Assembly: GCF_004010195.1 (NCBI RefSeq)
Contig: NW_025214129.1
Span: forward strand, 1 to 33,551
Length of the DNA stretch: 33,551 nucleotides
From: Chiloscyllium plagiosum
Taxonomy: Eukaryota
Reading direction: 5' to 3'
Shown: piece by piece, positions 4,311-30,519 of the stretch
How positions within the stretch are numbered: position 1 is the stretch's first letter
Layout: the number at the start of each line of letters is the position of its first letter
Made by a program: the position numbers and the translations under genes
Notes under the pieces: generated by a model
Seen by the model: the letters and a program-made list of their open reading frames with translations, nothing else
The model's database searches: none
What the model was told of the DNA's origin: nothing

Positions 4311-4539
4311 TGGTGATCCGGATCATTTTTAATATTACAGGTACCCATTGGTGAGGTCTATCTACAATGTCATTGTCAACGTTGATGTCTGGTTTCAGGA
4401 CTCACTTACCTCCATGTACCACGGAGGTCTGCACGGAAGGAAACAAACCTACATTCCCTTAATTCATGTGCACACCCAAGTGATGGTTAAATGTCCCTAA
4501 TTTATCTGATTCTGCATTACGCACACCAACCATGCTCTG

Positions 4540-7715: not shown

Positions 7716-7829
7716 ACGGAGAACAATCATCTTCAGAGGTGAATAAAAAAGTATTGAACAAACTTCTGGGATTGATGACAAATTGTTAAATCCTTCATTA
7801 AGGAATTCATCACTCCTTAATATTCGCAA

Positions 7830-8920: not shown

Positions 8921-9151
8921 GATGGAGGAAATGAAGCGTTATTGAGAGTAAAGTGGAACCGTGGCGAAGATGACATCATCCATAGTTGTATTAAATTGCA
9001 AAGGATGTTCGAGGAGCTGAATTACCGACGGATCTCGCCGTTATTATTCAGCTTTTCGAATGTGATGTACAGGAATGTCTCAAAGGAGTTAACCAGTAAA
9101 GAAATTGGAAGGCCACGGCCTCGGGATATGAGCACCTAACTGCTAAATCAG

Positions 9152-9359
9152 CGGGCAGTGAATGGTTGACTGGTGTTATCACGAGACTGTTAATGCCAGC
9201 ACGCAAATAACGCTCGACGGATCCGGGTCCGAATCCATCTGTGGCAAATAATGTAATATGAATTCAGCAAAATCAAAAGAGAATTGTCTAATAATGACCG
9301 TGAATCCATTGTTGGAAAACCCCATCTAGCTCACTGATGTTCTTTAGGGAGGAAGGTTC
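9152..9359 (+). mobile_element. tRNA-derived SINE, 5' half (split by CR1 insertion; continues at 13019-13130)
   Basis: B-box-like GGTCCGAATCC at ~9226; colinear with the reverse complement of the 24236-24570 SINE up to ...TTTAGGGAGGAAG. Confidence 0.75.
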
Positions 9360-9438
9360 CATGTTTAGAACATCGAACATAGAACAATACAGCACAGAAC
9401 AGGACCTTCGGCCCATGATGTTGTGCCGAACATTTGTC

Positions 9439-11137: not shown

Positions 11138-11993
11138 NNNNNNNNNNNNNNNNNNNNNNNNNNNNNNNNNNNNNNNNNNNNNNNNNNNNNNNNNNNNNNN
11201 NNNNNNNNNNNNNNNNNNNNNNNNNNNNNNNNNNNNNNNNNNNNNNNNNNNNNNNNNNNNNNNNNNNNNNNNNNNNNNNNNNNNNNNNNNNNNNNNNNNN
11301 NNNNNNNNNNNNNNNNNNNNNNNNNNNNNNNNNNNNNNNNNNNNNNNNNNNNNNNNNNNNNNNNNNNNNNNNNNNNNNNNNNNNNNNNNNNNNNNNNNNN
11401 NNNNNNNNNNNNNNNNNNNNNNNNNNNNNNNNNNNNNNNNNNNNNNNNNNNNNNNNNNNNNNNNNNNNNNNNNNNNNNNNNNNNNNNNNNNNNNNNNNNN
11501 NNNNNNNNNNNNNNNNNNNNNNNNNNNNNNNNNNNNNNNNNNNNNNNNNNNNNNNNNNNNNNNNNNNNNNNNNNNNNNNNNNNNNNNNNNNNNNNNNNNN
11601 NNNNNNNNNNNNNNNNNNNNNNNNNNNNNNNNNNNNNNNNNNNNNNNNNNNNNNNNNNNNNNNNNNNNNNNNNNNNNNNNNNNNNNNNNNNNNNNNNNNN
11701 NNNNNNNNNNNNNNNNNNNNNNNNNNNNNNNNNNNNNNNNNNNNNNNNNNNNNNNNNNNNNNNNNNNNNNNNNNNNNNNNNNNNNNNNNNNNNNNNNNNN
11801 NNNNNNNNNNNNNNNNNNNNNNNNNNNNNNNNNNNNNNNNNNNNNNNNNNNNNNNNNNNNNNNNNNNNNNNNNNNNNNNNNNNNNNNNNNNNNNNNNNNN
11901 NNNNNNNNNNNNNNNNNNNNNNNNNNNNNNNNNNNNNNNNNNNNNNNNNNNNNNNNNNNNNNNNNNNNNNNNNNNNNNNNNNNNNNNNNNNNN
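11138..11993. other. Assembly gap (856 N)
   Basis: Run of N inside the CR1 element, between ORF1 and ORF2 remnants. Confidence 1.
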
Positions 11994-12812
11994 CCAGAAT
12001 GCAGTCCAATTGTCCAAATACCTGAAGCCCTCTCTCCTACACCATCCTTGCATCCACGTGTTCAACTTCACTCTCCCTATTCCTTGCCTCACTGTCACGT
12101 GGCACCGGTAACAACCCAGAAATAACGACTCTGTCCGTCCAAGCTTTTAGCTTCCAGCCGAACTCCCTGAGCTCCTGAATGACCTCCCCACCCCTCTTCT
12201 TACCTATGTCGTTGGTGCCAACGTGCACCACGACTTCTGGCTACACACCCTCCCCCTTAAGGATTCTGAAGACACGGTCCGAGAAGTTTCAGACCCTGGC
12301 ACCCCGGAGGCAACAAACCATCCGAGAGTCTCGCCCATGTCCACAGAACCGCTGGTCTGTCCCTCTGACTACAGAGTCTCTTATAACTAGCGCTCTCCTC
12401 CTCTCACCTTTCCCTTCTAAGCCTCAGAGCCGGACCTCGTGCCAGAGACCCGGTCACTGCAGCTTAACCCTGCTAGGCCGCCCCCCCAAAAGTATCCAAA
12501 GCCATATACTTATTGTTGAGGGGAACGACCACAGGGGATCCCTGCACTGCCGCTTCCTCCCCTTCCCATCTCTAACTGATACCCAGCTACCTCTGTTCTC
12601 TGGCGTAACTATGTCCCTGTAGCTTCTATCTATCACCCTCTCAGCCTCTCGAATAATCCTCCGTTCATCCAACTCCAGCTCCAGTTCCCTAACGCGTTCT
12701 GTGAGGAGCAGGAGCTGACTGCATTTCCTGCAGATGAGGTTGGCAGGAGCATCGGTGGTCACCCCTGCCTCAAATATCCTCAGGAGGAACATTCCACTGC
12801 CTGGTCTGCCAT
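11994..12812 (-). pseudogene. CR1 ORF1 (Cys-rich N-terminus, coiled coil, SGNH/GDSL-like esterase), frameshifted
   Basis: ATG at 12812 gives MADQAVECSS, then a frameshift into ...ICRKCSQLLLLTERVRELELELDE; VHVGTNDIG (SGNH block III GxND), VVISGLLPVP, LNTWMQGWCRREGFRYLDNW. Confidence 0.85.
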
Positions 12813-13018
12813 AAATCTACACTGAGTCTCCAAAACAAGAACACTGAGTAGCTTACCTGTGGACTTTAAAGTTAGGTTAGAGGAGGAGAATGGGAGGGAG
12901 GCCTAGGGTCTAGAACACACCAACTCAAATGTCAATCACTTACCTTCCCGACCAGCTCTGCGCTCCAACTTCACTTCCGCCCAGCTCCTGCCGCTCTCTG
13001 CTGTGAAAAGCATGTTTA

Positions 13019-13130
13019 CATGTGATTTCAGACTCACAGCAAGATGTATGAGTCTTAACTGCCCTCCTGGCAATGAATGTTAGGCAATCCAGCGCTGCCC
13101 TCATCCCATGAATGCATTTAAAAAGAAACA
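13019..13130 (+). mobile_element. tRNA-derived SINE, 3' half
   Basis: CATGTGATTTCAGACTCACAGCAA...CTTAACTGCCCTC...CATCCCATGAATG plus an A-rich tail; continues the SINE broken at 9359. Confidence 0.75.
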
Positions 13131-15781
13131 GTGGAGTCACACAGTGACAATCTCTGCGTCTTCAACTAGGTACAATCTATAATAATCAATTGGAGGAATG
13201 GAAGAACTATTCTGTAGTGAAGATGGCGGTGGCACTACGATGGTGAGGATTCTGCAAATAGATACAGATGGATAAATTCATTGGATAATAGTTTGATAAA
13301 TAGAATACGAAGTGAAAATTTATCTTTCTTTTTCGGAAAGAATGGAAGGTACTAAGCTTCTCAAGTGGAGAGAGATTACGAGACTTATTGATAAGTTGTG
13401 TAATGGAAGATTCACGCTGAACCATTCAGACATCGGATGTGTTTACCCGTCTCTCTGACTGTCTGCTTCCTGATGTTCCCAGTGGCCACATTGCTGTCAG
13501 GTCACATCGGATATTTTGATATGATTTGTTGGCACTGGGGAGTTTGGAGGGAGGGTGTTTTTAAACGTGCATCAAGCCTTTATCCGAGAGGCCATCCTTT
13601 CATTCTACGTGGAGAAACGAAGACTATGAGAATGACTGATTGCTTCTGTATGAAGGGGCTGTGTCTCCTGGCAAGAGAGTGGGCATTCACATGATGTACT
13701 ATGTATTGTAAAAATGCCGCATTAATGGAGTGAGTGTTCATTCATTTCTCTACATCTTGGATGTAGGTTTGCTTGTCAAAACCTCAACCTGAGCTACAAA
13801 TCTCTCAACACACACTTCATCTGCCTTTCCCCATTGACATGGAGACCCCGCTTAGCCATCTACACCAACAGGAATCTCCATATTCTGGGAAAACAAGGAT
13901 ACACTCGGACGCCCCCTGCTGAGGGAGAAAACATTCACTTCATCCATCATTTACTGTGTGTATATCTTCCATCACCAAATGGTGACATAGATGCTGACAT
14001 TCTAGATATGTCACCAACTCATGCTGGCAAGTTTTAGATCATAGAATCTGAATGAAAATAGTGGACGAAGCACCTGCACTAACTTCTCAATAACAAGAAT
14101 CCGTCAGCCGCCACTCAGCTACAAGCGAGATGCCTCGTCCATCATAGTAACACTGGAGGGGCTTCCTTATGTCACTGACCAAACGATTACCTGCCAGGGA
14201 TAAATACAGGCGTTAATTGGGCAGGCACAGACAAGTCTCCGAGATGACTGTCAAAGCTGGCGAACTCTCCACTACCCCAGTCCAACATGCAGCACCACAT
14301 GAGACACTCAACATCTGATTGCTTCTGAATGTCACGATGCCAGCACTCGATACACTACAGAGCAAAACCCAAAACCAAGGAAAGACACAGAGGGACAGTG
14401 AAATGCGTATTAAAGATAGAAACAGACAACTGTTTAATTCAGAGCACCTTGTGGAAACATGGCAAAGTAGACAAGGTAGTGGGAATAACTGCAGCAGTGA
14501 GACCTTGAAGCATTTAATCACAAAAATAGAACATTGCATAAAGGCATTGCCAGATTAGATGAAATGGTTCGTTACAACAAATTCCAAATATGTATCTCGG
14601 AACTAATCCAGACACCATAAATTGGGATAAGGTAACAGCCCAGAATAGAGAACTGTGCAGACTGTACTCGTGCATTGTTCAGTAAACAGGACTGCCTGAT
14701 CAACACTTGCAGTATTGAAAACCATTGCCAGAAAATTGGCGCTTTACTGACACGATGAAACTGCCTGGCATGGGAAATTTGAAATTCCTGCTGAGTCACA
14801 GTAAATGGAACTCCCAGCAATTGATATCTCTATATCTCCGTTGCACCAGAACAAAGCTGTGTGTAAGTTTAGGATCATAAGGCGATAAGAACTAGATGTG
14901 GAACTAAGGTCATTTGGCCCATCGAGTCCACTCTGCAATTAAATCAAACCATTCACAGTTTGTCTGTGTATTTATGTGTCCGTGTGTGCATATGTGTGCG
15001 CGTGCACGTGTGTGTAATCTGTTGAAATATTAACAACTGACAGGGGTTTGGGCAATCGACAGAGAGAAACTGATGGATGTTTCATAGACAGATGTGTTGA
15101 TGCGATAACAATAGAGATTAGTGTGCACAAGAATGAGCGACGGATGAATGGATTTTTAGTGTCAGTTCGGACACAGGCCATGAAGTATCGACGAGATTTG
15201 CTTCTACAGGTTTGAAGATGGGAGTGCCAACAATAGAAAATTGCCATCAGTAAGACCGTATTTCGTAGCTCAAGACTGAAATAGAAGATCAGATGAGCCC
15301 GTTCGTTATATTTTGGAAGTTTGAGTGTTTAAAACCAGAAATGGCCAGGGTATGGTGTTCGGAATCAGACCATGGCCAAAAAGATCACCATCGTTGTGAT
15401 TCGTCAATTTCAGCCTCATACATTGGCCAGGGATTGGACAGCGTCGGAGGAAGGAAATGGACCTTTTAAGCAGAACAGAAGGCAGTGACCTCTCTGCTGC
15501 GAATATTTAAATGACGATGGCTGTGACACAATGAATCACAGTTCACATCTGAATCTGAGCAGGTCATGTTAGAGACCCAAGAAGAAAAATGCCAGAAGCA
15601 AAGACCGAAAGTATAAATGAGCGATTTCACTGATGAAGTTAGTGGTGGGTTATCAATTGAATATCTGGATTCAAGTCCCAGCCAGAGAAATAATATCAGC
15701 AGGGCGATTCAAATAAATGAGAACAGCAGTAATAAATTTAAACATGGTTTATAGAAGTACTTAATGTAGAGAGATACTTAC

Positions 15782-16079
15782 CAGGAAAACCAACGATGGC
15801 CAGGATTGGATAATACAAATATTGAATAATGTAAAGTGCATATTCGATCCGATACGAGAATGGAAACCAAACGTATGTAGAAAGAAACCAAATATCCCAG
15901 GATAAACTTTTATCCATTGTTGTAACATTCCAGTGCTTTGTTCTCAGATTCTGATTCATTGTTAGAACATTCCAGTCTAATATTCTCAGATTCTGACCGC
16001 TGCTTCCCCTTTCTCTGGATCTCCTGATCCCCATTCGTGCTGTCAATGATGCTCCTGCTTCTACTGTGGGCATGCACAT
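15782..16079 (-). CDS. GPR139-like: First coding exon of a GPR139/GPR142-like class A GPCR (ectodomain plus most of TM1); the remaining exon(s) are not seen in the window
   Basis: Open frame ...MNQNLRTKHWNVTTMDKSLSWDIWFLSTYVWFPFSYRIEYALYIIQYLYYPILAIVGFP followed by G|GTAAGT (phase-1 consensus donor at 15781-15776). The YYxxLxxxGxP TM1 with an intron straight after the Pro fits the GPR139 family as I recall it. N-glycosylation sequon NVT. In-frame ATGs at 16079, 16073, 16034, 15959 and 15917; the true start is uncertain. A paralogous exon at 30081 has the same donor position. Confidence 0.8.
15915..15998 (-). repeat. 42-bp (14-aa) coding tandem repeat in the GPCR N-terminus
   Basis: GQNLRILDWNVLTM / NQNLRTKHWNVTTM; TTCTCAGATTCTGA recurs at 42-bp spacing on the plus strand. 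Confidence 0.85.
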
Positions 16080-16127
16080 TGAACGGAATATATTTAAAGA
16101 TGAAAATACTCATCCAGGATAATGAAA

Positions 16128-16163
16128 ATCCATGGAGACTGACATTAATCACAGTCGCTGAAC
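16128..16163 (-). promoter_or_regulatory. Conserved non-coding block upstream of GPCR exon 1 (5'UTR or promoter candidate)
   Basis: 31/36 identical to 30410-30445, upstream of the paralogous exon. Confidence 0.45.
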
Positions 16164-16611
16164 CAGATTCAGTTAACTCTTTCCCGACATCACTTTTCTA
16201 CCTCAACAAAGGGGAACATTTGAGCAGTCTCGATGGAATGGATGAAAGTTACCGACAGATGAACTATCAACCTTTTCAATATTTCTACCTTTTATGTGGC
16301 GGTAGTGGCAGAACACTGGAAGGTTGTTTTTGTTCCACCGTGTTTATATAAAGAGACAGATAATATAACGACCAGCTGCATCAAATGTCTTTTTGTGCAA
16401 GTCCCCAGATACTTTAACCATATTTGTTGCCCATTGACTTCGTGTAGTGCTGCTCCTAGTTTTTAATGCACTGTTATAAAATCTTTTCTTAATCTTGAGG
16501 CATCATTCAGAGCATTGAAACGTCTGCTCAGGAACAGGAAAAAACAATTCTGTCCGTATATGCCTCTTAGAGATTGGAGGTGGCCATTTAATACTCACGA
16601 GCGTATTTGTA

Positions 16612-17327
16612 CTAGAAAGGTTGGGAAGATACTTGGTAGTGTGAATGAGCAGAGGGATCTTGGTGTCCATGTACACAGATCTTTGAAAGTTGCCACCCAG
16701 GTAATTTGTGCGGTGAAGAAGGCATATGGCGTACTGGCTTTTATTGGTAGAGGAATTGAGTTCCAGAGTCCTGAGGTCATGTTGCAGTTGTCTAGGACTC
16801 TGGTGCGGCCCCATCTGGAGGATTGTGTGCAGGTTTGGTCGCCATACTATCGGTAGGATGTGGAGGCACTGGAACAGGTGCAGAGGAGGTTTACCAGGAT
16901 GTTGAGATGGTAGGAAGATCGTATGAAGAAAGGCTGAGGCACTTGGGGCTGTTTTCATTGGAGAAAAGAAGGTTTAGGAGTGACATGATAGAGGTGTACA
17001 AGATGATTGCGGTTTCGATAGTGTTGACCATGAGAATCTTTTTCCACGTATGGAGTCAGCTATTACGAGGGGGCATAACTTTAAATTAAGGGGTGGTAGG
17101 CATAGGACACATGTTAGGGGTAGATTCTTTACTCAGAGAGTCGTGAGTTCATGGAATGCCCTGCCAGTAGCAGTGGTGGACTCTCCCTCTTTATGGGCAT
17201 ATAAGCGGGCATTGGATAGGCATATGGAGGATAGTGGGCTAGTGCAGGTTAGGTGGGTTTGGATCGGCGCAACATCGAGGGGCAAAGGGCCTGTACTGCG
17301 CTGTATTCTTCTTTGTTCTATGTTCTA
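16612..17327 (+). mobile_element. 5'-truncated, relatively young CR1 LINE 3' end
   Basis: EQRDLGVHVHRSLKVATQV...LVRPHLEDCVQVWSPY, LGLFSLEKRRFRSDMIEVYK, TRGHNFKL...FFTQRVVSSWNALP; ends in a TGTTCTATGTTCTA tail. Confidence 0.92.
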
Positions 17328-17334
17328 ATTTGTT

Positions 17335-17650
17335 TCACTGCATGTGAGATGAAGAAGCTGAACACAGTAGATACAACAAAGGCAATGGGCCCTGACACCA
17401 TTCCTGCAATAGGACTGAAGGCGTGTGCTGCACAACAAGCCGTGTCCCTGTGGAAGCGGTTTCATTCCAGCTCCAATTCTGACATCTCCCTGGCAATGCG
17501 GAAAATTACTCAGCTATGTCCACTCCCTTAAGAGAAGAATAATGAAAACCTGACCAATTACCACACCTTCAGTACAATCACGATAGTCAAATTGATGGGA
17601 GTTCTTTTTGACAGAGCTGTCAAGCAGCACAGAAATAACTTGTTCAGTGT
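17335..17650 (+). mobile_element. Decayed LINE ORF2 fragment (N-terminal to the RT core)
   Basis: LNTVDTTKAMGPDTIPAIGLKACA...ITQLCPL matches the K..GPD.IP...LK motif; followed by an NLTNYH (NYRP-like) motif. Confidence 0.7.
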
Positions 17651-17669
17651 GGTTTCTGATAGGTCCCCA

Positions 17670-17950
17670 TGTGGAGAAGGTGCTATTGTGGAAATGTCAT
17701 TGGATTACTAATCCAGACAATGATAATGCTCTGGCACCTGGTGGAAGTTAAAAACAATTAATAAAATGTTGAGACATAACATCTGGTGTCAGTAATAGTT
17801 ACCCTGAAGCCAATGTCGATTGTAAATATCAGTTTTCTTCTCCAATGTACTTTCAGGAAGTAAATCTCCCGTGCTTTCCTGGTCTGGCATAAAAGTGACT
17901 CCAGACGCACAGACATGTGATAAACTCTTCAATGGTCCCTGAAATGGCTC
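17670..17950 (+). mobile_element. tRNA-derived SINE (decayed)
   Basis: Head GTGGAAATGTCATTGGATTACTAATCCAGA and core CCTGGTCTGGC...GTGACTCCAGAC shared with the other copies. Confidence 0.7.
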
Positions 17951-17959
17951 CACAATTAT

Positions 17960-18930
17960 CATCCTTACTTGTAATCTGTCTCACCCTGTCAGTGTTTTAT
18001 ATATTTCACTGCTATATTTTGCTAAAGCACATGGAATATAGGTTCAGTCGACCCAAACTCTGCTCCCACAACAAGCCTGTCATCCCAGAGATCAGTCTGG
18101 TCATCCTTCACTACTGTCCTGGAATGTCAGCCTTGTCCTTTATTAGGTATGGAGACCAAAACTGCACATAATACTGCACAATTTTCGAGATGGGGTCTCA
18201 TCAAGGGCCTATACAGCTGTAGTAAGACACCCTGACACCTGGACACAAATCCCCCTTTTCAATGTTACAGCTACCCAACTGGTGGGTCTATGTACACTGG
18301 TAAGTGTCCCAATGCCATTCCCAGTATTTTATTCTGGCTTCAGAACTCACTATCCTGTATAGACGGCGGAGGTCGGTGAAGAATGAAACAAAAAGAATCA
18401 TAAGTCCCTTTATAGCGTAACATTTTCCAACCTTTTCAACTGGTAGGCTACCGTTCTCTTTTTCGCATCAAAGGGTACAACGTCATTGCTCTTCATTGCC
18501 CCGTATTTGCACAGACACTCCCCTTGCCTCAATTACCTTGGAGCTACTTTTACATCCTCCTCACGCACTCATAAACCGACATCGATTAGTGCCATCAGCA
18601 GGCTTGGAAATATTACATTTGATTCCCTCTAACAAACGTTTGGTGTGTATTTGAAATAGCTATGTCCCAAACACTGAATTCTGCTACACCCCCGAGTCCT
18701 CTGCTGTAAACAAAATCGATTTATTCCTACTCACTGTTTCCTGTTTGCTCTCCCATTCTAAAACCATGCCCTTCTGTTAGCCCCAGTCCCATAGGATTCG
18801 AATTTGCATAGTAGGCTTGGGGCTTTATCAAAAATCTTCCTGAAAATCCAATCGTATTGCATTGATTGCTTCTCCATAGTTTTGCTAAAAGTCAGGTTCT
18901 CAAATATGATTCCCATTTGATAAATCTCTG
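17960..18930 (-). mobile_element. Decayed CR1 LINE RT region with an unrelated ~130-bp insert (18265-18395)
   Basis: GAGACCAAAACTGCAC...TACAGCTG homologous to CR1 copies at 9730-9800; GGGGCTTTATCAAAA at ~18820 corresponds to the FDKxP motif on the minus strand. Confidence 0.6.
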
Positions 18931-19661
18931 TTGCCTTTGTCTCAGCCCACTACTTTCAGTTAAAGTACTTTCTCCATAACGTTTATTTGCTAATAGTATT
19001 CTACTCCCCTTTTCTCTCTCACCAGATTAAGCTTTCCTTGTGTTGCTGGGCAGATTGATTTTTGGTTTGTTTTCTTATGTGAAGACATAACTGAAATGTT
19101 TGCTGCATAGTTCTGCCATTTTCCTCTTCTCCATTCTCCAACAAAGAATGGAAAATGGTAACAAACCTGCACTTTTTTCCCTTAATTTTGACATTGATGT
19201 ACTTTTTAAAGCTATTACAAGTTCACTCTTATTACCCTTCTGCATATAGAGTGTTCTGAAACTCATCAATTCCTGTCTTAAGCTTCTCAGTGATTGACCT
19301 TGCACAAAAATGTGCTGATCAAAAATACATCAGAAATACACACACGAGCCCCACTTTTCTTCACGAGCCCCATAGCTGGGAATGCTATGACAATTCAAGT
19401 GGTCGTTCAAGTAACAAATGTGAGATTACCCGTGACAACTCCCTCTTCGGTAGTGCATTCCAGACCCCAAAACCCTCTGGGAGAAGTATGATCCTCAAGT
19501 CCCCTCTCAATCTCAAACCCTTTACTTTAAGAATGTGCTCCCTTTGTTCTTCTCCCTCTGACTAAAAGGAACAGCTGTTGTATATCCACCCTGTCCATGT
19601 CCCTCATAATCTTCCTTCTGAATCACATCACCCTCAGCCTTCTCTGCTCCAATGTAAACAA

Positions 19662-19872
19662 GGAGAAAGTGAGGACTGAAGATCTGGAGATCCGAGCTGA
19701 AAATGTGTTTCTGGAAAAGCGCAGCAGGTCAGGCAACATCCAAGGAGCAGGAGAACCGACGTTTCAGGCATTAACCCTTCTTCCTGAAGACGGGATCATG
19801 CCCGAAAGGTCGATTCTCCTCCTCCTTGGATGCTGCCTGACCTGCTGCACTTTTCGAGCAACACATTTTCAA
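19662..19872. mobile_element. Short Penelope-derived inverted (hairpin) terminal-repeat insertion
   Basis: Arms ~19694-19783 and ~19784-19875 are reverse complements; perfect 15-bp TSD CTCCAATGTAAACAA at 19647-19661 and 19873-19887. Confidence 0.85.
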
Positions 19873-20442
19873 CTCCAATGTAAACAACCCGAGCTTATCC
19901 AGCCTCTTTCCATAGCTGATATGCTCCATCACAGGGAACATGCTGGTGAATCTACTCTGCAACCCCCTCCAGTACAATCACATCCTTCCTGGAATGTGGC
20001 TCCCAGAACTACACACAGTATTCCATCTTGGCCTAACCAAAGTTCTGCAGAGCTCTTATAATCTGTGCCTCGATGAATGAAAGCTATGCTTACGCTCCCC
20101 TTTGCTTTCTGAACTTGTGTATTAACCAGTCCAGTCACATGCAGGGTTGTGTGGAGAAGCTCCCTCTGAGCTCCCTCGTGTGCTGCCATTCACTGAGTAC
20201 TCCACTGTCTGGTTCCTTCTTCCAAAGTGCATCACCTCATTTTTATCAAGGTTGCATTCCATCTGCTATTGATCTGTCCATCTGACCATTCCATCTGTAT
20301 CTTCCTGTAATATAAGACCTTCCTCCTCACTGCCAACCAACCGGTCATTCGTTGTATCAAACACAAACTTAGTTATCACACTCTCCCCACCCCTCGTCCA
20401 TATTTACAGATGCACCATTTATGAATACCACAAATAATAAGG

Positions 20443-20619
20443 TTATATATCACACAACACCAGGTTATAGTCCAACAGGTTTATTCGGAGGCACCAGCTT
20501 TTGAAGTGCTGCTCTGTAATCAGGTGGTTGTGCGCTTTGAAAGCTCGTGCCTCCGAATAAACCTGGTGTGCATGAGTTTTAACTTTATCCACCCCAGTCC
20601 AACACAGGCACCTCCGAAT
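20443..20619. mobile_element. Second-family Penelope-like inverted terminal-repeat insertion
   Basis: CAGGTTTATTCGGAGGCACCAGCTTT (~20477-20502) pairs with AAAGCTCGTGCCTCCGAATAAACCTG (~20540-20565); perfect 14-bp TSD CACAAATAATAAGG at 20429-20442 and 20620-20633. Confidence 0.75.
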
Positions 20620-20799
20620 CACAAATAATAAGGGTCACAACATTGATCCCTATGTTGCACCATTATACACCAGCCTCCAGTCATACCAACAGGCTTCTAC
20701 CATCACCCTCTGACTCCTACCACTAAAGTTGATTTAGATGCAACTTGGCAAGTCACTAATGACTCCTACCTCTTCCCTGGTTATTCTGTTCGACATGAC

Positions 20800-22240
20800 A
20801 CACTTGTTGAATCCCTAAACTTGTTGATTCTTCCTAAACTTGCCGTGCCAGCAGGTTTCCATCTCCCTGTATTAGTCAGTCCTCTCCGAGTCAAGAATTT
20901 CCTCCTTATTACTGTCTTAAATGGCTTGTCCTATATCCTGCCATTATTTGCCTTAAATGTAGAGTAGACAGCCAGAAAGTCATCCTTATTATTTCCACCT
21001 TGTCATATGTTTAGTGAATTTTCTAAACTTCACTGCAGTCACCTCTCATTCTTTGAAACCCTAGAGAACACGGGCCGAGTTTCTGCATCAGACAATCTTG
21101 CCATCTGAAGGACGAATCTGAAGAATATCCATTGCAATTCCTCTGTGGTCAATATATTCTTTCTCATATTAGGTCACCAAAACTGTGCACAATATTCCAG
21201 ATGCAGTCTCAGCAAAACTGTACACAATGCTCCAGGTACAGTCTAACCAACCCTGCACACAATATTCCAGGTACAGTCTCACCAATACTATATGAAACTA
21301 CTTCAGCATTTTATTGCATCGATATTCTGATTCCTTTCATTGAAGGTGAACCCAACTTTAACTTTCCACTTACATATATTCTTCCAAATACCCTTCAAAA
21401 AGTCCGAAATTATGAAGTGTGATTTCCTTTCAGAAATGTATACTGATTCTCTCCAATGTTGCTATTGATTTCTAAATATCCAATATCGCATCCTGTCTCA
21501 TAGATTCCAAACGTTTCTCTACAGGTGTCAAGTTAATTGGTCTGCATTTCTTCACACTATCACTTTTTCCGTGTCCAAATGCCTGAATCCATTACATTCA
21601 TCTCCCTCCCATGCTTGGATCACGTTTATTCCCTTCCATTTATTGACACTGGCTTTCCAGCCTCAAGAATGTACAGGAAAATAAAAGACAGTCATCGACA
21701 GTGCAATTAATACATCTATTGCTGATTTATTTCTGACGCTTTGAAATGAATTACATCTGTTTCGTTAGACATGGCAATGCTCCATCCAGCTCCATGTTCA
21801 AGTATTACCTTGTTACTGATATGAATTGACTTTGTGTCTTTAGTTCCACACGTCCTATATGATCACTTAGTATTACTGGGTGATTTTCTGGATCTTCCTC
21901 CATGAAGATAGATGCAAAGTAACTGGTTATTTTCTTGGCCATTTCCCTGTTCTCCACAATAACATCTCCTCTCCCGATTACAAATATCCACATTTGACCT
22001 TGCTTCTATTTTGTTTCCTTTGAAATACATATGTAGATGTATGCAGTCTTTGTGTTCCTGTTTGTTAGCACGCATGTTCGCTTTTTGATTTCCTTATCAG
22101 TTTCATGGCCCTCCTTTTCTGGACTGTAAATTTCTGACATTTCTCAGGGTTCCATAATGTCTGGAATTCTTCTGAAGTCACTTCTTATGATTAATATAAT
22201 CTTTCATTTGTTATGTTAACCATCATTAAGTCACTTTCTC
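20800..22240 (-). mobile_element. Old decayed CR1 LINE ORF2 with internal deletions
   Basis: ORF 21805-21993 GDVIVENREMAKKITSYFASIFMEED matches the CR1 E..EMAE.LN.YF.SVFT.E motif; 21020-21300 is homologous to the CR1 RT C-terminus. Confidence 0.7.
21181..21285. repeat. 3 x 35-bp tandem repeat inside CR1
   Basis: AACTGTGCACAATATTCCAGATGCAGTCTCAGCAA / AACTGTACACAATGCTCCAGGTACAGTCTAACCAA / CCCTGCACACAATATTCCAGGTACAGTCTCACCAA. Confidence 0.85.
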
Positions 22241-22324
22241 ACTCTTAGGTGTTTTTTACCGTAAAGAAATTGACTTTTGCTTCAGACTTTGCAATATTTC
22301 TAGAAACAGGTATATCCAAGAATA

Positions 22325-23847
22325 TTTCAAGAGGACAGAAAAGAGATTGCGGGGGCCTGGCTGATATGTTTGCATCATCGCTGGCCATGGGTGAGGTCCC
22401 GGATGACTGGAAGAGAGGGAATGCTGTGCTCTTCTTCAAAAAGGGCTACAAAGAAAAACCTGGGAACTACAGACCAGTAAACCAAACATCTGTAGTTCGT
22501 AAGGTACTTGAGAAGATTCTGAAAGATAAGATAAACATACATTTGGAAAGGCAGGGTATGATTAGGAGCAGTCTGCACGGCTTTGTGTATGGGAGATCAT
22601 TGCTGACAAATTTATTCGAGTTGTTTGATGAAAAGTGACCAGAAACGTTGACGAGGGCAGGGTGATATATGTAGTCCAATTGATTTCAGCAAGGCCTTCA
22701 TGGTACACTGCTCTGAAAGGTTAGATTGCATGGAATTGAGTAGGAACAGGGCAAATTAGATACAAAATTGTCTTGATGGTAGGAAGCAGAGAGTTATAGT
22801 GGAAGGATGCTTGTCGGACTGGATACCTGTCACTAGTGGAGTGCCTCAGTGTTCGGTGCAGGGACCATTTCTGTTTGTTTTATGTATAATGATTTAATTT
22901 TGAATGTACAAGGAATGATTATTAAGATTGTAGATGACAATAAATAATGTGGTATCGTGCACAGTGAGGAAGGTTGTCAGACATTGTTGCAGGATCTTAA
23001 TCAGCTGAGGAAGTGGGCCAAGAAATGGCAAATGGAGTTGAATGTGAATAAATATGAGTTCTTGCATTTTACAAAGTCAATTCAGGGTCGGCGTTTCATG
23101 GTGAATGGTTGGGCTTTAAGGGTTGTAGTGGAACAGCCAGACCCTGGAATTCAGATGCACGGTTCTATGAAAGTTGATTCAGACATAGACAGGAGAGTGA
23201 GGAAGGCTTTTGGCACACTGACCTTCATCGGTCAGGGCATTGAATATCGAAGTTGGGGATTTATGTTACAGTTATACAGCATGCTGATGAGGCCATACTT
23301 GCAGCATTATATTCAGTTTTGTTCACTTTGTTAAGGGAAGGATGTTATTAAACTGGAAGAACTGGAAAGAGGAACTTGACAAGGATGTTGCCAAGGGCTC
23401 AATGGTCTGTGTTTTAATGAGAGGTTTGACAAGCTAGGACATTTTACTTTATCGTGTATGAGACTGAGGGGGAATCTGATGGAAGCGTATAAGATCATGG
23501 CAGGCATGGATAGTGAATGCACTCAGTCTTTTTTTCCCCACTGTTGGACAATCCCAGACTAGAGGGCATCAGTTTAAGGTCAGACGAGAAAGAATAAAAG
23601 TGAATATGAGGGGCAACATTTTTTACACAGAGGGTGGTATGCATATAGAATGAGCTGCCAGCGGAAATCATTGAGGCAGGTACATTAACAACACTTAACA
23701 GGCATTTGGACAAATACATGAACAGGAGAGGCTGAGAAGGATACCGGGAAAGAGCATGGAAACGGTGTTAGTGTGAATGGACATTTTGTCTGGAATGGAC
23801 TACTTTGGGCTGAAGGGCCTTTCTCTATGCTGCAGGACTCTGTGACT
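22325..23847 (+). mobile_element. 5'-truncated CR1 LINE: RT domain through 3'UTR
   Basis: GEVPDDWKRGNAVLFFKKG..EKPGNYRPV, HGFVYGRSLLTNLFE, AGTGGAGTGCCTCAG (SGVPQ), WAKKWQMELNV, GIEYRSW; ends GACTCTGTGACTC. Confidence 0.92.
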
Positions 23848-24235
23848 CGAAAAAACATTGCTTGTCTCTCACTGAATGTTATATTGTACTTTTCCAATTC
23901 ACTGGAGCTAACTTGACCCTCGCGCCTCCAGGCTTCCACGATGTTTGACTATAATGTTCAAAATTTCTATATTACATGCAGACGGTATGTAAAATGCAAC
24001 ATATTAATGTCTCAATTCCTCAAAGCTGCTTCAGAGCAAGGTTAGTAATTAGTCTTTCTGACCACAGAACACCAAATCCTAAATAACCTGCTCTCTAGTT
24101 TGGTTCACAACATACTCTTCAACCCACCTGATACACAATTATGGAATTTATTTGTCACAACACTAGCAGTCACTTAGTTAACGCAGTTTCGATACAACTT
24201 GATGCCATCCAGTATTATTGCAGCACCCACGATTA

Positions 24236-24570
24236 TTTGTTACTCATTTACAGGATGAGGGTGTCGCATTTATAACCAGCATTTATTGCCCATGCCTGAA
24301 GGCTGTTAAAAGTCAACAACATTGCCTTGATCTGGAGTCACATGCAGGCCAGACCAGGTAAGGACAGCAGTTTCCTTCCCTGAAGGACATCAGTGAACCA
24401 GATGAGTATATACAACATTCGACAATGGGTTACTGGTCGTCATAAACCCTTGATTCCATGTACTTATTGAATTCACATTCCACCATCCGCCATGACAGGA
24501 TTCAAACTTGGTACTCCCTGGGTCTCTGGGTTAAGAGCCCAGCGATAATACCACGAGGCCATTTTCCCCT
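24236..24570 (-). mobile_element. tRNA-derived SINE, near full length
   Basis: Minus-strand A-box-like TGGCCTCGTGG (24561-24551) and B-box-like GTTTGAATCC (24507-24498), then the conserved core and a GGGCAATAAATGCTGG tail. Confidence 0.85.
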
Positions 24571-24574
24571 TGCA

Positions 24575-25050
24575 TATACTTGCATATCCAATTTCCAGAG
24601 CATATGATGCAAAATATTTGTGCGACAGTTTTGGTCTCGATATATAACGCACCAATGTTTGCTTCTCTTTGCTATTTGTAAGATCCACCCAAACTGATTC
24701 TGTGGAATCTGAGGGACAGGGTCTGTGGCGTTGGTAGTGATCGACTTGGACAAGACATAAAGGGAGACTCGCCTCGACGCTGGGATGATATGAAGAATTG
24801 GTCAGCAATACAGGACAAGCATCAACATCCTCCCCGCTCTGTCAGGATAAGTGCTACTATATTCTCTCTGCTCCCTCACACTCACTGTATACCTGTTATA
24901 GCACCTACCCCTGAACAAGGCTCACACTGTCTCTCCAAATAAGGCTCAAGCATGACAACTCTCACTCTTAAATTCAGCACCTTCCTTCACCGAAATTTTC
25001 TGTCACTGACAAAATAGCCCTGCACATTAATATCATGGCGTGGATACAAC
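24575..25050 (-). mobile_element. Decayed CR1 endonuclease N-terminal fragment
   Basis: ORF 24473-24808 contains STESVWVDLTNSKEKQTLVRYISRP, matching CR1 APE E..WV.L.N.KG..TL.G..YRP. Confidence 0.6.
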
Positions 25051-25429
25051 ACTATGGACAGACTCCATCCTGACACCTCACCCTTCCCCCATCCACCTAC
25101 ACCAGCACTAACAGCAGGGCTACCCACTCCAACCCTCACTCCTTCCCTTCCTTTCTCCCATTCCTGGAGAAACAGCCTGGAATAGGACAGAAAGGACCAA
25201 GCCAGATGGTGGAGTGCCTGACATCCATTCCCTCATCCCCCTACTCCGCCATGTGGGGAGGACCCTTGTAGGAGCCGGAAAGGACCAGGAGGCCTTGTGT
25301 GGAAATTCTGAAACATCCACATCCCACCAAGCGAGTAAGGAGCAATAGTCAGTAAAGAGCAGTTCTCAATTTAAACTCACTGGCAATTCCAACCTCATCT
25401 CTCTCACTCGTAAAAAGAACAGATGCCCC

Positions 25430-25690
25430 ATTGCACAGAGATGCAGGCATTGAAATACACAGAAATATTGGTAACCACTACAATATACTAACATGCACAG
25501 TGCATACAAGGAGATAAGCATACACACACAGAGAAGCACACAGAGACATATATAGTCACTCACAAATAGACAGAAACACAGATAGAAACACACAGTCTGA
25601 TACCCAGACAGACAGAGGTAGTCACAAAAATACACAGATAACAAGCACATAGACACACACACACATACACACAAAGACACAGACACTAGT
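25430..25690 (+). repeat. Degenerate (CA/GACA)n microsatellite-like low-complexity tract
   Basis: ACACACAC/ACAGAC runs; accounts for the Cys/Val/Leu-rich spurious ORF 25366-25800. Confidence 0.85.
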
Positions 25691-25850
25691 GTCATTAAGA
25701 CACAAATAAATAAGTTTTTGATTGATAAGGAGATCAAGAATTCTAGGGAGAAGGTAGTAGAATGATGTTGAGAAACATGTAAGAAATGATTGAACAGCAT
25801 GACAGACTTGATGGGCCGAATGGCCTAATTCTGTTCCTTTCTTTAATGCT
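25690..25850 (+). mobile_element. CR1 3'UTR fragment
   Basis: GATGGGCCGAATGGCCTAATTCTGTTCCT terminal motif. Confidence 0.65.
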
Positions 25851-26499
25851 TGTGTGGTGTTATTCTATCAGGTATTCTCTTCCTGAGACAGCAACAGAGG
25901 CTGGGTTTGATAAATATTTGATTGGAAAGAATCAGTGGTATTGTGGAACAGAGCTGGATGCCGGAATGGTTTATGTCTATTCATAGTTATCGTATCCTTT
26001 TATCCGAAAAGGGGCAGTCATTTGATGTGAGATCAAGGCAGACTTAAAATAATGGGTCCCACAGTGAAATCAGGATGTGCCCTTCCCTTTAGTGTTTTGC
26101 TCCCTGTGGTGTACTCATCCTCAGAGAGCAGTGAAGACTCAGTTATTGAAGATATTCTAGGCTGAGCTCGACTGATCTTTGCTGGACTGGAGAGTCAATG
26201 TTTGTTGGGAACAGACAGGAGAGGGATGGTTAGACACAATCGGATCTGCCATGAGCATTCCGAATGGTGCAGCCGAATGGCCAACTGCCGCCCCTACCCC
26301 ATGTGTGGTTCCCTCAATCCAGCCCTCGAGTCTATTACAGGGTAGGGGACCACCCCATCCAGTTACACAGGTCGTTACAATGAGATGGGAAGAGACCATT
26401 CTGCTCGTCAAAGGAGTTACACAGGAATATAGAATGAAGTAATTCAGCTCGTTGAGTACATTTCACAGCCCAGGAGGAGGCCATTCAACCTGCCTAAAC

Positions 26500-27200
26500 T
26501 ACTGCATAGGAACAGGGATGCTGTCCCTAACAGGAAATAGACAGTAGAAATAAATGAATATTTTTACCAATATATAGGTAGTTGGACGAAGGGATTGAAT
26601 GGATATCATTCGATATATCTTCGAATGGAGGTAGTGAATCTGCATTGTGATATAGACAGGGAAGGTTAGTGAGCAAACCTTCAGCAGAAATAATATAACG
26701 TGAGATTTCTATTGTGGTAGGAAGGATAGAACAGCCGGAAACAATTTAAATGGAGAGAGATCACAGAACTCTGTGATGCAGAGTTTTTTCATATTCCTGG
26801 TACATGAATCATATGAAGTCTGTCTGCAGATGCTGCAAGTGGCTTGGACGGTAAGTGAAATGATGCTGTTTGTGGCCACGGGTATTGGGTTTAATCAGGA
26901 ATGTTTTGCTTCATCTGTACAGGGCATTACTGAAACCACATCAGATACACTGGGTGCAGTTTTGATTCTTTAAACTAAAAAACTGATATAATTCCTTCCT
27001 AAGATTTTCAAAGATGCTTCCCTTTACTCATTCCTGAAATGAAAGCCATTTGTTATCGGGGATGATCTTTTTGGGTCTTCGATGAGAAATCTTATTGAAC
27101 CACGGTTTTCAGAAAAGTGTATCAGCTGGATACATATTTTCTCTTGCTAAAGAGGCTAAAGCTGGAGATTATTTTTTACGAATGAGATGTATTGATATTA
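26500..27200 (+). mobile_element. Very old CR1 RT C-terminal fragment
   Basis: ORF 26773 VCLQMLQVAWTVSEMMLFVATGIGF weakly matches the CR1 QV..A.KKA.GML.FI.RGIEF motif. Confidence 0.5.
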
Positions 27201-28374
27201 ACACAAATATTATGAAGATATTAACCCATTTTTGAAAATTATGCAGACACATATAAACATGTCATCAGATTATAAAGCGGGCACTTTTTTTTTGCTAATG
27301 AAAGACACTGTGCATAACAAAAGCAATGATGCTGCATACAACATATATTCCAATACCATCCATTCCAGAGCATGTTCATGGAGAGTACACATGGCCCAGT
27401 TTGGTGGTCAGTTGACATTATTTTATTTTTCCACACAGGGAGGGAGAAAAATATTACCTACCTCAGAAGTAGAAGCCAATTGCTCTCTCTGTCTCTGACT
27501 TTGTTCTGCCTGAAATCAAGGTATAAGAGCAGAAAATCCCTGCGTCATCTTTACCTCTCGTGGAGGATTCCTGATGAGGATTCATAGAAATCTCTCCACT
27601 GCCCGAAGCAAAGGGAATTCAGCCAAATCCAACTGTTCTGGGGAAAAATCCCATTACCAGACATTTGTGGGAGCAGAATAATTTCAATGGCAGAAAAACA
27701 TTTGAGACACTCTGTCATTCTACCATTTGTTAAGAGTTCAACTTTGTGTGTCTCACACTTTTCTAGGAAATTACCCAGCCTGACACCTATATCATTGGAC
27801 ACATGACTAAACGGGTTACATTTGAAATTTGCTTTCACCCGGAGGTGTGGGAAAAGCATTAGAGACCCTCGAACATTGGTTAGAACATGAACAAGAGATT
27901 CTCAAAGGGCTGTTAAAGTGTGAATTCCCTTCCCCAGAAGTTTCCATTTATTAAAAATTGTGTATGTTAAACATTTGACAGACAAACGAATGTCGGTAAA
28001 TGGCACACAGACAGAAAACTGTTGTTGAGACGATAATCAGAACTTATTCCTTGGTGGAGCAGTGACAAAGTGTGTCATGACAAACTCCTGCTCCTCAGTG
28101 CTATGTTCCTATGTTCCATTCAGCTCCTCACAGCTCCTGCAAGGAGCAGATGGGGGCCACTTGCTCCAAATACCTGGTCCACTGCAATACAGGATCTCAC
28201 TCAATCCCTCGCAACTGTCACACACAGATTGGTATGGATTGGAAAATGTTATTTGGAAATGCAGGCTGGGTTCTAAAGATGTCTCTGGTCTCTTTACAGA
28301 GTGCCCCCTCTCTGCAACTTATGCTTCATTTGTTGGTCTTGGTCTAGACCACGATTCATTATGAATAAAGCCCC

Positions 28375-28591
28375 ATATCTCACTCAGAGATGACTCAAAA
28401 TGCTTTGTTCTCTCTGAGTGCAACACTCAATAACAGAACATCCAGGAAAATTACAACCGTTTACTTTGCAAATAAAGAAAATATATCTCACTCAGAGATG
28501 ACTCAAAAATGCTTTGTTCTCTCTGAGTGCAACACTCAATAACAGAACATCCAGGAAAATTACAACCGTTTACTTTGCAATTAAAGAAAAT
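28375..28591. repeat. Near-perfect 108/109-bp tandem duplication; each unit has a 10-bp inverted repeat
   Basis: Units 28375-28482 and 28483-28591 differ by one A insertion and one substitution; CACTCAGAGA (28381-28390) / TCTCTGAGTG (28411-28420). Confidence 0.95.
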
Positions 28592-28830
28592 GAGAACATA
28601 AGGAACAGTATAAGGTAATTCGGACAGTCAAGCCATTGTATACAATATTGGCTGATCTGCTGTAAACATTAACTCCTCTTTAATGCCCAATTCTTCACAC
28701 CCCTCAGCTCTCTGACAGGTCAACTATCCATCTACCGCCTCTTTAAATAGTTTCAGTGATGTAGCTCCCTTAACTCTCTAGCCCAGATAATTCCTGACAG
28801 TGATTACCCTCTGTGAGAGGACAACACTCC
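28592..28830 (-). mobile_element. Decayed CR1 3' end
   Basis: GAACATAAGGAACAG...ATTC..., TGGCTGATCT and ACCCTCTGTGAG motifs of a reverse-oriented CR1 terminus. Confidence 0.5.
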
Positions 28831-28869
28831 CTGCAAATACGCTATCACCTATTGATATGAACAAGAGGT

Positions 28870-29340
28870 GAACATAGGAGCTCAGGAAAGAGTGAATGGC
28901 CTTGATATCAAGGCAGTATTTGACTGAGAATGTCATCGGGACCACCTACTTATTTGAGCTGAATGGGATTCAGGGGTAACCTCCCACTGGTTGGGGTCTT
29001 TCAGAGCACAGAGGAAGATGTTTGTGGGCGGTGGCAGACTATCCTCTCAATCCCAGATCATCTCTTCAGGAGATCCTCAGGTTAATTTCCTCAGTGCAAA
29101 CATCTTCAGCTGCTTTGTCGACATCTACGCACCCGCACCCCTGGCACCCCACATCCCTCATGAGATCAGCGGCGGGGTGATCACTGAAGATCACACAATG
29201 TTTAGAAAATTTTGTCCCTCCTCAGCTCCTGAACCAGTCTCTGTGTCCATGTGCAGCATGACCTGGACAGCATTCAGATTTGTACTGTTAAAGTGTCGGT
29301 AACATTCATGTAACAGCAGAGCCAGACACTGCATATTTCC
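28870..29340 (+). mobile_element. Decayed LINE RT core fragment
   Basis: GCCTTGATATCAAGGCAGTATTTGAC (ALDIKAVFD) and ORF 28991 SSGDPQVNFLSANIFSCFVD, matching [14 protein letters not shown]. Confidence 0.7.
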
Positions 29341-29384
29341 ACAGTTAAAAAAGGATCTCATTCAGCATATCAAGCTGGTTACAT

Positions 29385-29640
29385 GGATATGTAGAAGCCA
29401 TTCAGCCCATCGAAATGACTGAACAAGAAGAGTGACAGCCCATTCAATCCTGCTGCCTGTTCCCCAGGAATTGAAGTGGTCTGGTCAGTACATTGAGCTG
29501 TTAAACAGGAACAGGTAGAGCCCAATCAGGCACTTGAACCGATGGAACGAGGAGGAGGCCATTCAGTCACTCAAGATACTTATACATGAACAGGAGAGTG
29601 TCATTGATGCTCCAACCTGAATAACCAATGGAGCAGAGAA
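29385..29640 (-). repeat. Degenerate ~40-bp tandem array (GGAACAGGAGGAGGCCATTCAG-like unit)
   Basis: GCCATTCAG (~29397), CCCATTCAA (~29439), CCCAATCAG (~29521), GCCATTCAG (~29558), most preceded by GAACAG/GAACAA; reverse complement of the 440-570 array. Confidence 0.55.
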
Positions 29641-30080
29641 TGCACTCATAGACGGCTTACGATGTTCCTTGTGGCTCCATGACCTGTGCAACATATGGTA
29701 CTTTAACGTGGTTTGCCGGCAGTGAGGAAGGAAGCCAGATGTTTTGTGCCAAGTCTCAAAGGGGCATCTTTCATCACCGAGAAGACAGACCCGCGAAGGA
29801 GACTGAAATATCCTGAAAGTGGTCTTGGGCAGGATTGGTGAGTGTGGAGAATATGTAGAAATGTAAATCTGAATGGAGAGAAAAGGTCATGGAGATTAAG
29901 AACAGTCTGGTTTCTCCTCGTGTATTGTTGAGTAAGTTGTGAATAATAATGTGATAGTTATAATTTGAAAGGAATAACATTTTTGACCGTATCTGAAAAT
30001 GATGACTTCCAAATTCCAAAATTTAAATATGAACAGCAATTCAGTTCAACTCAGTTTAATGGTCAGATGGAATGACTTAC

Positions 30081-30278
30081 CAGGAATACCAACTATACCG
30101 AGGATGGGATAGTAACCACCTTGAATAATCCAAAGGATACCTTCGATCCGTGATGCTCATGATATCCAAGGCTGAGAAAGGTAGTAAAGACCCGAGGATA
30201 AACTCCTGTGTGGTGTAATGTTCTCAGATTCTGATCCATTATTGGAACATTCCAATCTAATGTTCTCAGATTCTGATC
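30081..30278 (-). pseudogene. GPR139-like: Disrupted paralogous first exon of the GPR139/GPR142-like GPCR
   Basis: DQNLRTLDWNVPIMDQNLRTLH, frameshift, then HRSLSSGLYYLSQPWIS*ASRIEGILWIIQGGYYPILGIVGIP-G|GTAAGT (donor 30080-30075). ATG 30239 to donor is 159 nt versus 178 nt in the intact copy (19 nt shorter, out of frame); TGA at 30159-30157 in the TM1 frame, with no in-frame ATG after it. Confidence 0.8.
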
Positions 30279-30519
30279 TCTTCTCCCTGTCTCTGGAGCT
30301 GCTGATCTCTGTTAGTCCAGTCGATGATGTTCCCACCCATACTGGGGTAACACATTGAATCAAGTCCTTAATTAATAGAAGAGGCAAACCCTCCAATGAC
30401 ACATTTACGATCCACAGAGACGGACATCAATCACAGTCACTGAACAAATAGCTCCAGCCAAAGCCTTTCAATTCAATATTTTATTAAAATTCAAAACAAT
30501 GATTCAAACATTCGCATTC

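What the first reader, a model, noticed from the sequence alone, without database searches (positions are those of the whole stretch)
15782..30445. Two tandem GPR139-like first exons with no second exon between them: possible variable-first-exon receptor locus
Seen: two homologous minus-strand exons (ending at 30081 and 15782) encode different ectodomain+TM1 sequences and stop at the same codon position (GxP + G) before GTAAGT, so they are splice-compatible (phase 1). The interval between them has no gap, is mostly retroelement, and has no ORF or remnant I can recognise as TM2-TM7; none is seen in 1-15781 either. Established: GPR139-type genes put most of the 7TM in a large downstream exon, and protocadherin and UGT1 clusters splice variable first exons to shared constant exons. 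Inference: either both exons feed one shared 7TM exon to the left of the window, giving swappable receptor N-termini, or the upstream exon is an orphan of a partial duplication. Its disruption here favours the second reading for this copy.
Basis: partly seen in the sequence, partly recalled or inferred. Interest (0 to 1): 0.75.

Follow-up and report, generated by a model that had tools for sequence, protein, structure and literature searches.

The report
Dead spare exon, shark receptor family
This shark DNA holds one broken and one intact first exon of a receptor family with about a thousand copies, likely brought together by partial gene duplication rather than forming a switchable menu of receptor ends, although another locus with three intact first exons ahead of one receptor body leaves that idea untested for the family.

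Summary
In detail: two homologous, same-phase first exons (donors at 30081 and 15782) and no exon 2 anywhere in the window, which is a whole unplaced contig. The shared-exon reading fails here. The upstream exon A has a frameshift and a stop; its nearest paralogue shares the stop. Exon B is open, and its 95%-identical paralogue on C8 has its own exon 2, 16.4 kb downstream. The window is a mosaic of three duplication units joined at 17326-17328 and 3190; no fetched paralogue shares either join. The family is huge: motif counts give 2069 first exons and 1026 second exons. In 12 tandem first-exon pairs the upstream exon was open in 3, the downstream in 8. Best reading: debris of birth-and-death duplication. 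One result runs against this at family level. At C8:57.87-57.96 Mb three open, divergent first exons precede one intact exon 2 with no gap between them. No junction reads were obtained, so alternative first-exon use is untested. The scan reported this kind of exon pair before on other shark DNA and in this genome.

The parts
30081..30445 (-). Exon A: broken first exon (A-type) of the shark GPR139-like family, with conserved 5' region; start codon 30239 out of frame with the donor, stop at 30159-30157, GT donor intact
   Evidence: at least 39 other copies at 85-93%; stop shared with C8:8,741,052
17329..30080 (-). Truncated intron of the A-type unit; collinear at 80-95% with introns of A-type paralogues on C16:74.86 Mb and C8:8.69/8.74 Mb; no exon 2
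17326..17328 (.). Junction between the A unit and the B unit at the 3' tail of a LINE-like repeat, with about 3 bases of microhomology; absent from all fetched paralogues
   Evidence: tail repeat at 17309-17327
16632..17328 (+). 3' part of a very high-copy LINE-like repeat upstream of exon B, also present in three B-unit paralogues
   Evidence: the LINE label is inferred from similarity to the repeat at 9365-9943 that adjoins the RVT_1 ORF
15782..16163 (-). Exon B: open first exon; start codons at 15959 (59 codons) and 15917 (45 codons), N-terminus plus TM1, phase-1 GT donor
   Evidence: 70% identical to the N-terminus of Rhincodon P0001; 7 of 7 copies at 93% or more are open
3190..15781 (-). 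Intron of the B unit, 91-95% collinear with C8:51.862-51.876 Mb; homology ends about 3.4 kb before that paralogue's exon-2 acceptor; contains the 856-N gap
1..3189 (.). Third duplication unit replacing the end of the B intron; 12 other pieces at 89-97%, none of which continues across 3190

Best explanation
The window is a mosaic of three duplicated segments from a very large two-exon receptor family, in which a broken first exon (A) likely came to lie upstream of an unrelated intact first exon (B) through a partial duplication that broke inside the long intron. Shown: exon 1 encodes the N-terminus and TM1, and exon 2 encodes TM2-TM7, with introns of 2.7 to about 35 kb in the copies mapped. Also shown: A is doubly broken, B is open, and B's paralogue has its own exon 2. 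Inferred: because the introns are long and repeat-filled, duplication breakpoints often fall inside them and copy promoter plus exon 1 without exon 2. The stranded exons decay but are carried along in later duplications, giving a surplus of first exons. B likely belongs to an ordinary two-exon gene whose exon 2 lies off the contig or was lost at the 3190 join. A would at most start a non-coding transcript.
For: A: out-of-frame start and in-frame stop, with the stop shared by its closest paralogue, so it was likely copied after it died. A-unit homology runs to 17326 and B-unit homology to 17328; three B paralogues continue with other DNA, and two fetched B paralogues have another subfamily's exon 2 about 4-5.5 kb upstream of B instead of an A exon. 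C8:51,862,373 (95% to B) is followed by an open exon 2 that is 74% identical to the Rhincodon protein matching B at 70%. There are 7 B-type first exons at 93% or more and 5 B-type second exons at 94% or more. In 12 tandem same-strand pairs the upstream exon was open in 3 and the downstream in 8 (Fisher p 0.10, pairs not independent). All 5 complete C-type upstream exons share one stop where Stegostoma P0008 and Rhincodon P0018 have His. A-type exons are open in 18 of 30 against 0.49 expected under neutral decay (p 0.16), with dN/dS 0.84-0.94, whereas 25 of 30 A-type second exons of about 900 bases are open. Among 120 annotated shark proteins no pair joins two different family-type first exons to one exon 2. 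The RefSeq isoform sets seen differ only by truncated or non-homologous starts or ends, and the gene of P0122 has a single first exon 2.7 kb from exon 2.
Against: First exons outnumber second exons about 2:1 by motif (2069 vs 1026). C8:57,874,401-57,960,332 has three open, 49-70% identical first exons before one intact exon 2 with no N between them. D-type first exons, which sit at the head of arrays in at least two loci whose flanks are about 85% identical, are open in 15 of 20 against 0.40 expected (p 0.002; biased sample). Neither join in the window was confirmed by independent reads. UGT1 clusters also contain pseudogene and relic exons (PMC1885805, passages), so dead exons alone do not exclude a variable array.
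Confidence: 0.74

Rival explanations
1. The family uses variable first exons: arrays of promoter-plus-first-exon cassettes splice alternatively to one downstream exon 2, giving receptors with different N-termini and TM1 on one TM2-TM7 body. The window would be a decayed piece of such an array, with A a dead cassette.
For: Same-phase donors and a conserved 5' motif at each exon. About 2:1 exon surplus. Tandem runs of up to four first exons without exon 2. The gap-free three-open-exon locus on C8. D exons stay open more often than neutral decay predicts. The exon-2 tree does not sort by first-exon type: 6 changes, at least 2 forced by well-supported branches; the C16:75.009 and C8:57.874 second exons are sisters (99/95) although their nearest first exons differ in type.
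Against: In the window A is dead and the A-B adjacency is private, not a conserved array. Exon 2 has about 1000 copies, not one constant set. Upstream exons are mostly broken (9 of 12). No annotated isoform pair of this kind among 120 proteins plus 10 clusters. Short exons stay open by chance 40-49% of the time at these divergences. The tree pattern is explained equally well by DNA-level re-pairing or gene conversion.
Confidence: 0.14
2. The A-B adjacency is an assembly mis-join at the LINE-like repeat (and possibly also at 3190), so the two exons are not neighbours in the animal.
For: The contig is unplaced in an assembly of 101,977 contigs. The join lies at the tail of a very high-copy repeat. 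No fetched paralogue and no listed read contig spans it (only 16 of about 44,700 pieces were listed).
Against: The join lies in called sequence, not at an N gap, with only about 3 shared bases. Gap-free tandem first exons recur at other loci. A test for a switch point inside the repeat found only 1 informative site, and it sided with the B unit.
Confidence: 0.12

Closest known systems
Shark and ray 'probable G-protein coupled receptor 139' automatic gene models (NCBI/UniRef; e.g. P0001 Rhincodon typus, P0008 Stegostoma tigrinum, P0122 Chiloscyllium plagiosum)
   Same: Exon B is 62-70% identical to their first 60-74 residues and ends at the same junction. The C-terminal part is Pfam 7tm_1. 479 proteins at E 1e-100 or better.
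   Different: The window has no exon 2 and A is a pseudo-exon. The models are automatic and give no account of surplus first exons.
Human GPR139 (PDB 7vug, 9m42)
   Same: The only solved structures matched by P0122 at E 1e-5 or better (2 sequences, E 3.3e-7).
   Different: The match is weak (33.5 bits; P0001 had none at 1e-15), so the shark family is a distant relative. Orthology was not tested. That GPR139 is a single-copy gene in mammals is recalled, not from a call.
Variable-first-exon clusters: protocadherin alpha/gamma, UGT1, GCNT2, UGT2A (PMC1885805, passages read)
   Same: Tandem, similar, same-frame first exons, each with a conserved upstream motif; pseudogene and relic exons occur there too; GCNT2 and UGT2A have only 2-3 variable exons.
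   Different: There, each variable exon is shown to splice to one conserved constant set and encodes the ligand-recognition domain. Here the downstream exon has about 1000 copies and likely holds most of the ligand pocket (TM2-TM7), upstream exons are mostly dead, and no such splicing has been shown.
Birth-and-death multigene families with relic fragments (olfactory, vomeronasal receptors; recalled)
   Same: Huge copy number, clustering on many chromosomes, many pseudogenes and fragments.
   Different: A long intron after TM1 makes the promoter-plus-first-exon fragment the common relic.

Membership tests
Variable-first-exon cluster (Pcdh/UGT1 type) | Tandem array of similar, same-phase first exons, each with its own conserved upstream motif | tested here: met
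   Window has 2; runs of up to 4 elsewhere; 5' motif shared. Promoter activity not tested.
Variable-first-exon cluster (Pcdh/UGT1 type) | At least two variable exons of the locus are intact | tested here: not met
   In the window only B is open. Met at another locus, C8:57.87-57.96 Mb.
Variable-first-exon cluster (Pcdh/UGT1 type) | One shared constant exon set downstream of the array | tested here: not met
   No exon 2 in the contig; B intron replaced from 3190; about 1000 exon-2 copies genome-wide.
Variable-first-exon cluster (Pcdh/UGT1 type) | Transcripts join different first exons to the same constant exon | tested here: inconclusive
   No RNA read reached the B donor in 2-6% of two runs. 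No such pair among 120 annotated proteins and 10 clusters; these are automatic models.
Variable-first-exon cluster (Pcdh/UGT1 type) | Organisation conserved across species | not testable with these tools
   No related shark genome is held.
Shark 'probable GPR139' family | First exon homologous to the family N-terminus plus TM1, phase-1 donor after G-x-P | tested here: met
   (HMM 79 bits for B, 39 for A).
Shark 'probable GPR139' family | Second exon encoding TM2-TM7 (7tm_1) | tested here: not met
   Absent from the window; present in B's paralogue on C8.
GPR139 orthologue | Phylogenetic orthology and ligand-pocket residues of GPR139 | not tested
   Only a weak sequence match to the solved human receptor.

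The most novel reading that the evidence does not exclude
Part of this thousand-copy shark receptor family is organised as small variable-first-exon arrays. At loci such as C8:57.87-57.96 Mb, two or three promoter-plus-first-exon cassettes splice alternatively onto one TM2-TM7 exon, so promoter choice swaps the N-terminus and TM1 of a class A GPCR, and re-pairing of first and second exons multiplies the repertoire.
Probability: 0.2. Interest if true: 0.8.

Novelty: new member of a known kind. Interest (0 to 1): 0.33.

Why it matters
For this window: little. It is a dead spare exon beside a live one, typical debris of gene-family turnover. For the family: a roughly 2:1 surplus of first exons means gene counts from either exon alone mislead, and stranded first exons are raw material for re-pairing promoters and N-termini with new receptor bodies. 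If the three-open-exon locus on C8 proved to splice alternatively, it would be a protocadherin/UGT1-style system in a class A GPCR. My searches found no paper on such a system or on this shark family. One targeted long-read experiment would settle it.

Tried and rejected
Hidden or decayed exon 2 in the window: rejected by tblastn, protein HMM and DNA HMM with positive controls. Exon 2 just beyond the left contig end at its usual distance: not supported, because 1-3189 comes from another unit. Homologue search with an open A-type first exon: 23 candidates, none at E 0.001. RNA: no RNA holder listed. On 15300-18200, run X5 (about 2% read) gave depth of at most 0.77 over 15882-16075, the family-wide repeat part of the exon, and none over 15785-15881 or the donor; X6 gave no reads, so expression and junctions are untested. 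X1 and X4 behave as DNA (contigs cross the donor unspliced) and show no listed piece across 17326. Switch point inside the LINE-like repeat: 1 informative site, inconclusive. Position-picked regions: C8:20.0-20.2 Mb had 0 first and 0 second exons, and C8:40.0-40.2 Mb had 4 and 3, too few for a ratio. The tally over 14 fetched regions that held any exon, 42 first vs 12 second, is biased because 10 were picked by a first-exon hit. A family-wide motif count covering the other subfamilies was not obtained, so the 2:1 ratio could be inflated if the first-exon motif also marks genes whose exon 2 lacks the counted motif. One search scored A-type exons in the wrong frame and was redone. Dropped from the pair count: two pairs whose upstream exon ends in an N gap, and all pairs separated by a 500-N scaffold join. 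Papers: searches were listings and abstract starts only; PMC12208981 was searched for four terms with no hits; PMC1885805 passages were read. No supplements were read; shark genome papers outside the library or their supplements may mention the expansion. Look-up of earlier findings by sequence found nothing.
Full report
Observation. On the minus strand the last exon bases are 30081 (exon A) and 15782 (exon B), each ending G-x-P plus one base before a GT donor. They align at 69% over about 390 bases, including a conserved 5' region. N gaps lie only at 11138-11993 and 31675-32439. Exon B is open, with start codons at 15959 and 15917, and is 62-70% identical to the N-termini of three shark 'probable GPR139' proteins. 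Exon A has its start codon (30239) out of frame with the donor and an in-frame stop at 30159-30157. No exon 2 was found anywhere in the window by tblastn, a protein HMM or a DNA HMM whose controls recovered frameshifted and partial second exons. The window is the whole contig G000:C100724 of a 3.56-Gb assembly in 101,977 contigs, so nothing is assembled to its left. A protein that NCBI labels Chiloscyllium plagiosum matches G000 exactly, so this is a bamboo shark genome.

Anatomy. The contig is a mosaic. Bases 3190-17328 match B-type paralogues at 91-95%. Bases 17326-31674 match A-type paralogues at 80-95%. Bases 1-3189 match a third set of 12 pieces at 89-97%, none continuing across 3190. The A-B join lies at the 3' tail of a LINE-like repeat with about 3 shared bases. 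Three B paralogues continue with other DNA there, and no fetched region spans either join. The B paralogue at C8:51,862,373 (95%) is an ordinary two-exon gene: its open exon 2 lies 16.4 kb downstream and is 74% identical to the Rhincodon protein that matches B at 70%. Upstream of it lies another subfamily's exon 2, not an A exon. The window's B intron follows this paralogue until about 3.4 kb before the acceptor and then switches to the third unit. B's own exon 2 is therefore either farther away than usual or lost; this cannot be decided from the contig. There are 7 B-type first exons at 93% or more, all open, and 5 B-type second exons at 94% or more.

The family. Exact motifs gave 658 first-exon donors and 316 second exons. 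Motifs with up to 2 mismatches gave 2069 first exons (control 15) and 1026 second exons (control 1). In my samples those two motifs captured 26 of 29 and 30 of 30 first exons, and 30 of 30 A-type second exons but only 1 of 4 others. The ratio is therefore about 2:1 with uncertain subfamily matching. Tandem first exons without exon 2 recur. C8:14.38-14.58 Mb has 6 first and 0 second exons, C8:8.67-8.77 Mb has 4 and 0, and C16:74.80-75.10 Mb has 11 and 1. These regions were picked by first-exon hits and are cut by 500-N scaffold joins. Position-picked regions gave 0/0 and 4/3; regions picked by a second exon gave 1/1, 2/1 and 3/1.

Are upstream exons alive? I scored an exon open if an in-frame Met lies 40-90 codons before a GT donor. 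In 12 same-strand pairs with no exon 2 and no 500-N join between them, the upstream exon was open in 3 and the downstream in 8 (Fisher p 0.10; pairs not independent; two pairs with the upstream end in a gap dropped). All 5 complete C-type exons share a stop where Stegostoma P0008 and Rhincodon P0018 have His, and window exon A shares its stop with C8:8,741,052. Dead exons were therefore likely copied as passengers. A-type first exons are open in 18 of 30, against 0.49 in a neutral simulation from intron divergence (p 0.16), with dN/dS 0.94 over the last 44 codons and 0.84 over the last 20. Of 30 A-type second exons, 25 are open, 4 broken and 1 unscored.

Results against this reading. At C8:57,874,401-57,960,332 one intact exon 2 is preceded by three open first exons, with donors at 57,908,122, 57,941,232 and 57,959,862. 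They are 49-70% identical over their last 46 codons, with no N and no other exon 2 between them. The middle one is D-type. Its flanks match, at about 85%, the D unit heading the array at C8:14.50 Mb, where D is also open and lies upstream of three broken exons; the same unit's downstream DNA precedes C exons in other arrays. D exons are open in 15 of 20 against 0.40 expected (p 0.002), with dN/dS 1.17 over 44 codons and 0.54 over the TM1 part. However, 16 of the 20 were chosen from the 39 best hits to an open query, and their position in arrays is unknown. The exon-2 tree of 27 rows does not sort by first-exon type: 6 changes, at least 2 forced by starred branches, 14 of 24 inner branches open. 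The second exons at C16:75.009 and C8:57.874 Mb are sisters (99/95) although their nearest first exons differ in type. Pairings there are automatic models or nearest neighbours, not transcripts. This shows re-pairing of exons at some level, by DNA rearrangement, conversion or splicing.

Transcript evidence. Among 120 annotated proteins (of 479 hits), four pairs had exon-2 parts at least 97% identical. None joined two different family-type first exons: three paired unrelated or missing N-termini, and one had identical N-termini. The isoform sets seen in 10 clusters differ by truncated or non-homologous starts or ends. The P0122 gene has one first exon 2.7 kb from exon 2 and no other within about 35 kb upstream. 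Reads laid on 15300-18200 did not reach the B donor in RNA and did not show the 17326 join in DNA contigs, so neither was tested.

Mechanism. Most likely (0.74), breakpoints of segmental duplication fall in the long repeat-filled intron and copy promoter plus exon 1 without exon 2 (inferred). The stranded exon decays, and later duplications carry it along. Exon A is such a relic, joined to the front of the B unit, and B is the first exon of an ordinary two-exon receptor whose second exon is off the contig or lost. Rivals are a decayed piece of a true variable-first-exon array (0.14) and a mis-join (0.12).

Comparison and novelty. Protocadherin, UGT1, GCNT2 and UGT2A clusters have tandem same-frame first exons with conserved upstream motifs, each spliced to one constant set, and include relic exons (PMC1885805, passages). 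This locus meets the first feature, fails on intact variable exons and on a shared constant exon, and has no transcript support. The receptors are Pfam 7tm_1 and only weakly like human GPR139 (E 3.3e-7). Searches listed no paper on this shark family or on a GPCR with variable first exons (listings and abstract starts only). Earlier notes of this scan reached the same verdict on other windows; my reading was recorded before the first look-up, and those notes are not independent support. The window is ordinary (interest 0.33). The lead worth following is the three-exon locus on C8.

Noticed in passing
L201-L209 (G000:C8:57,874,401-57,960,332, minus strand): Three open, divergent first exons (donors at 57,908,122, 57,941,232, 57,959,862) upstream of one intact exon 2, with no N gap between them; best candidate for real alternative first-exon use.
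   Followed up: partly
L097-L103 (G000:C8:14,448,170-14,503,263, minus strand): Run of four first exons: an open D-type at the head, then three broken ones; the D, C, A order seems to recur on C16 and C8 as a duplicated unit.
   Followed up: partly
G000:C8 overall: A 107-Mb chromosome densely filled with this receptor family: 80 exact first-exon donor motifs in its first 22.8 Mb; further clusters on C5, C7, C16, C18, C26, C46, C48 and others.
   Followed up: no
L002-L007 (G000:C8:51,856,103-51,913,153): Inverted duplicate of the B unit facing the complete B gene; a short-first-exon subfamily gene lies upstream of each copy, and one of these has a frameshifted exon 2.
   Followed up: partly
window 15915-15996 and 30216-30279: The N-terminal coding region is a 42-base tandem unit whose copy number varies among family members, changing ectodomain length.
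   Followed up: no
L178 (G000:C8:40,171,699-40,172,578): A broken first exon whose 3' part is duplicated in tandem.
   Followed up: no
window 28375-28591: Recent two-copy 109-base tandem duplication at 98% identity inside the A intron.
   Followed up: no
window 10061-10618 (minus) and 32752-33551: Reverse-transcriptase ORF fragment (RVT_1, E 6e-20) of a LINE; a 91% similar copy of the adjoining repeat lies at the right end of the window.
   Followed up: no
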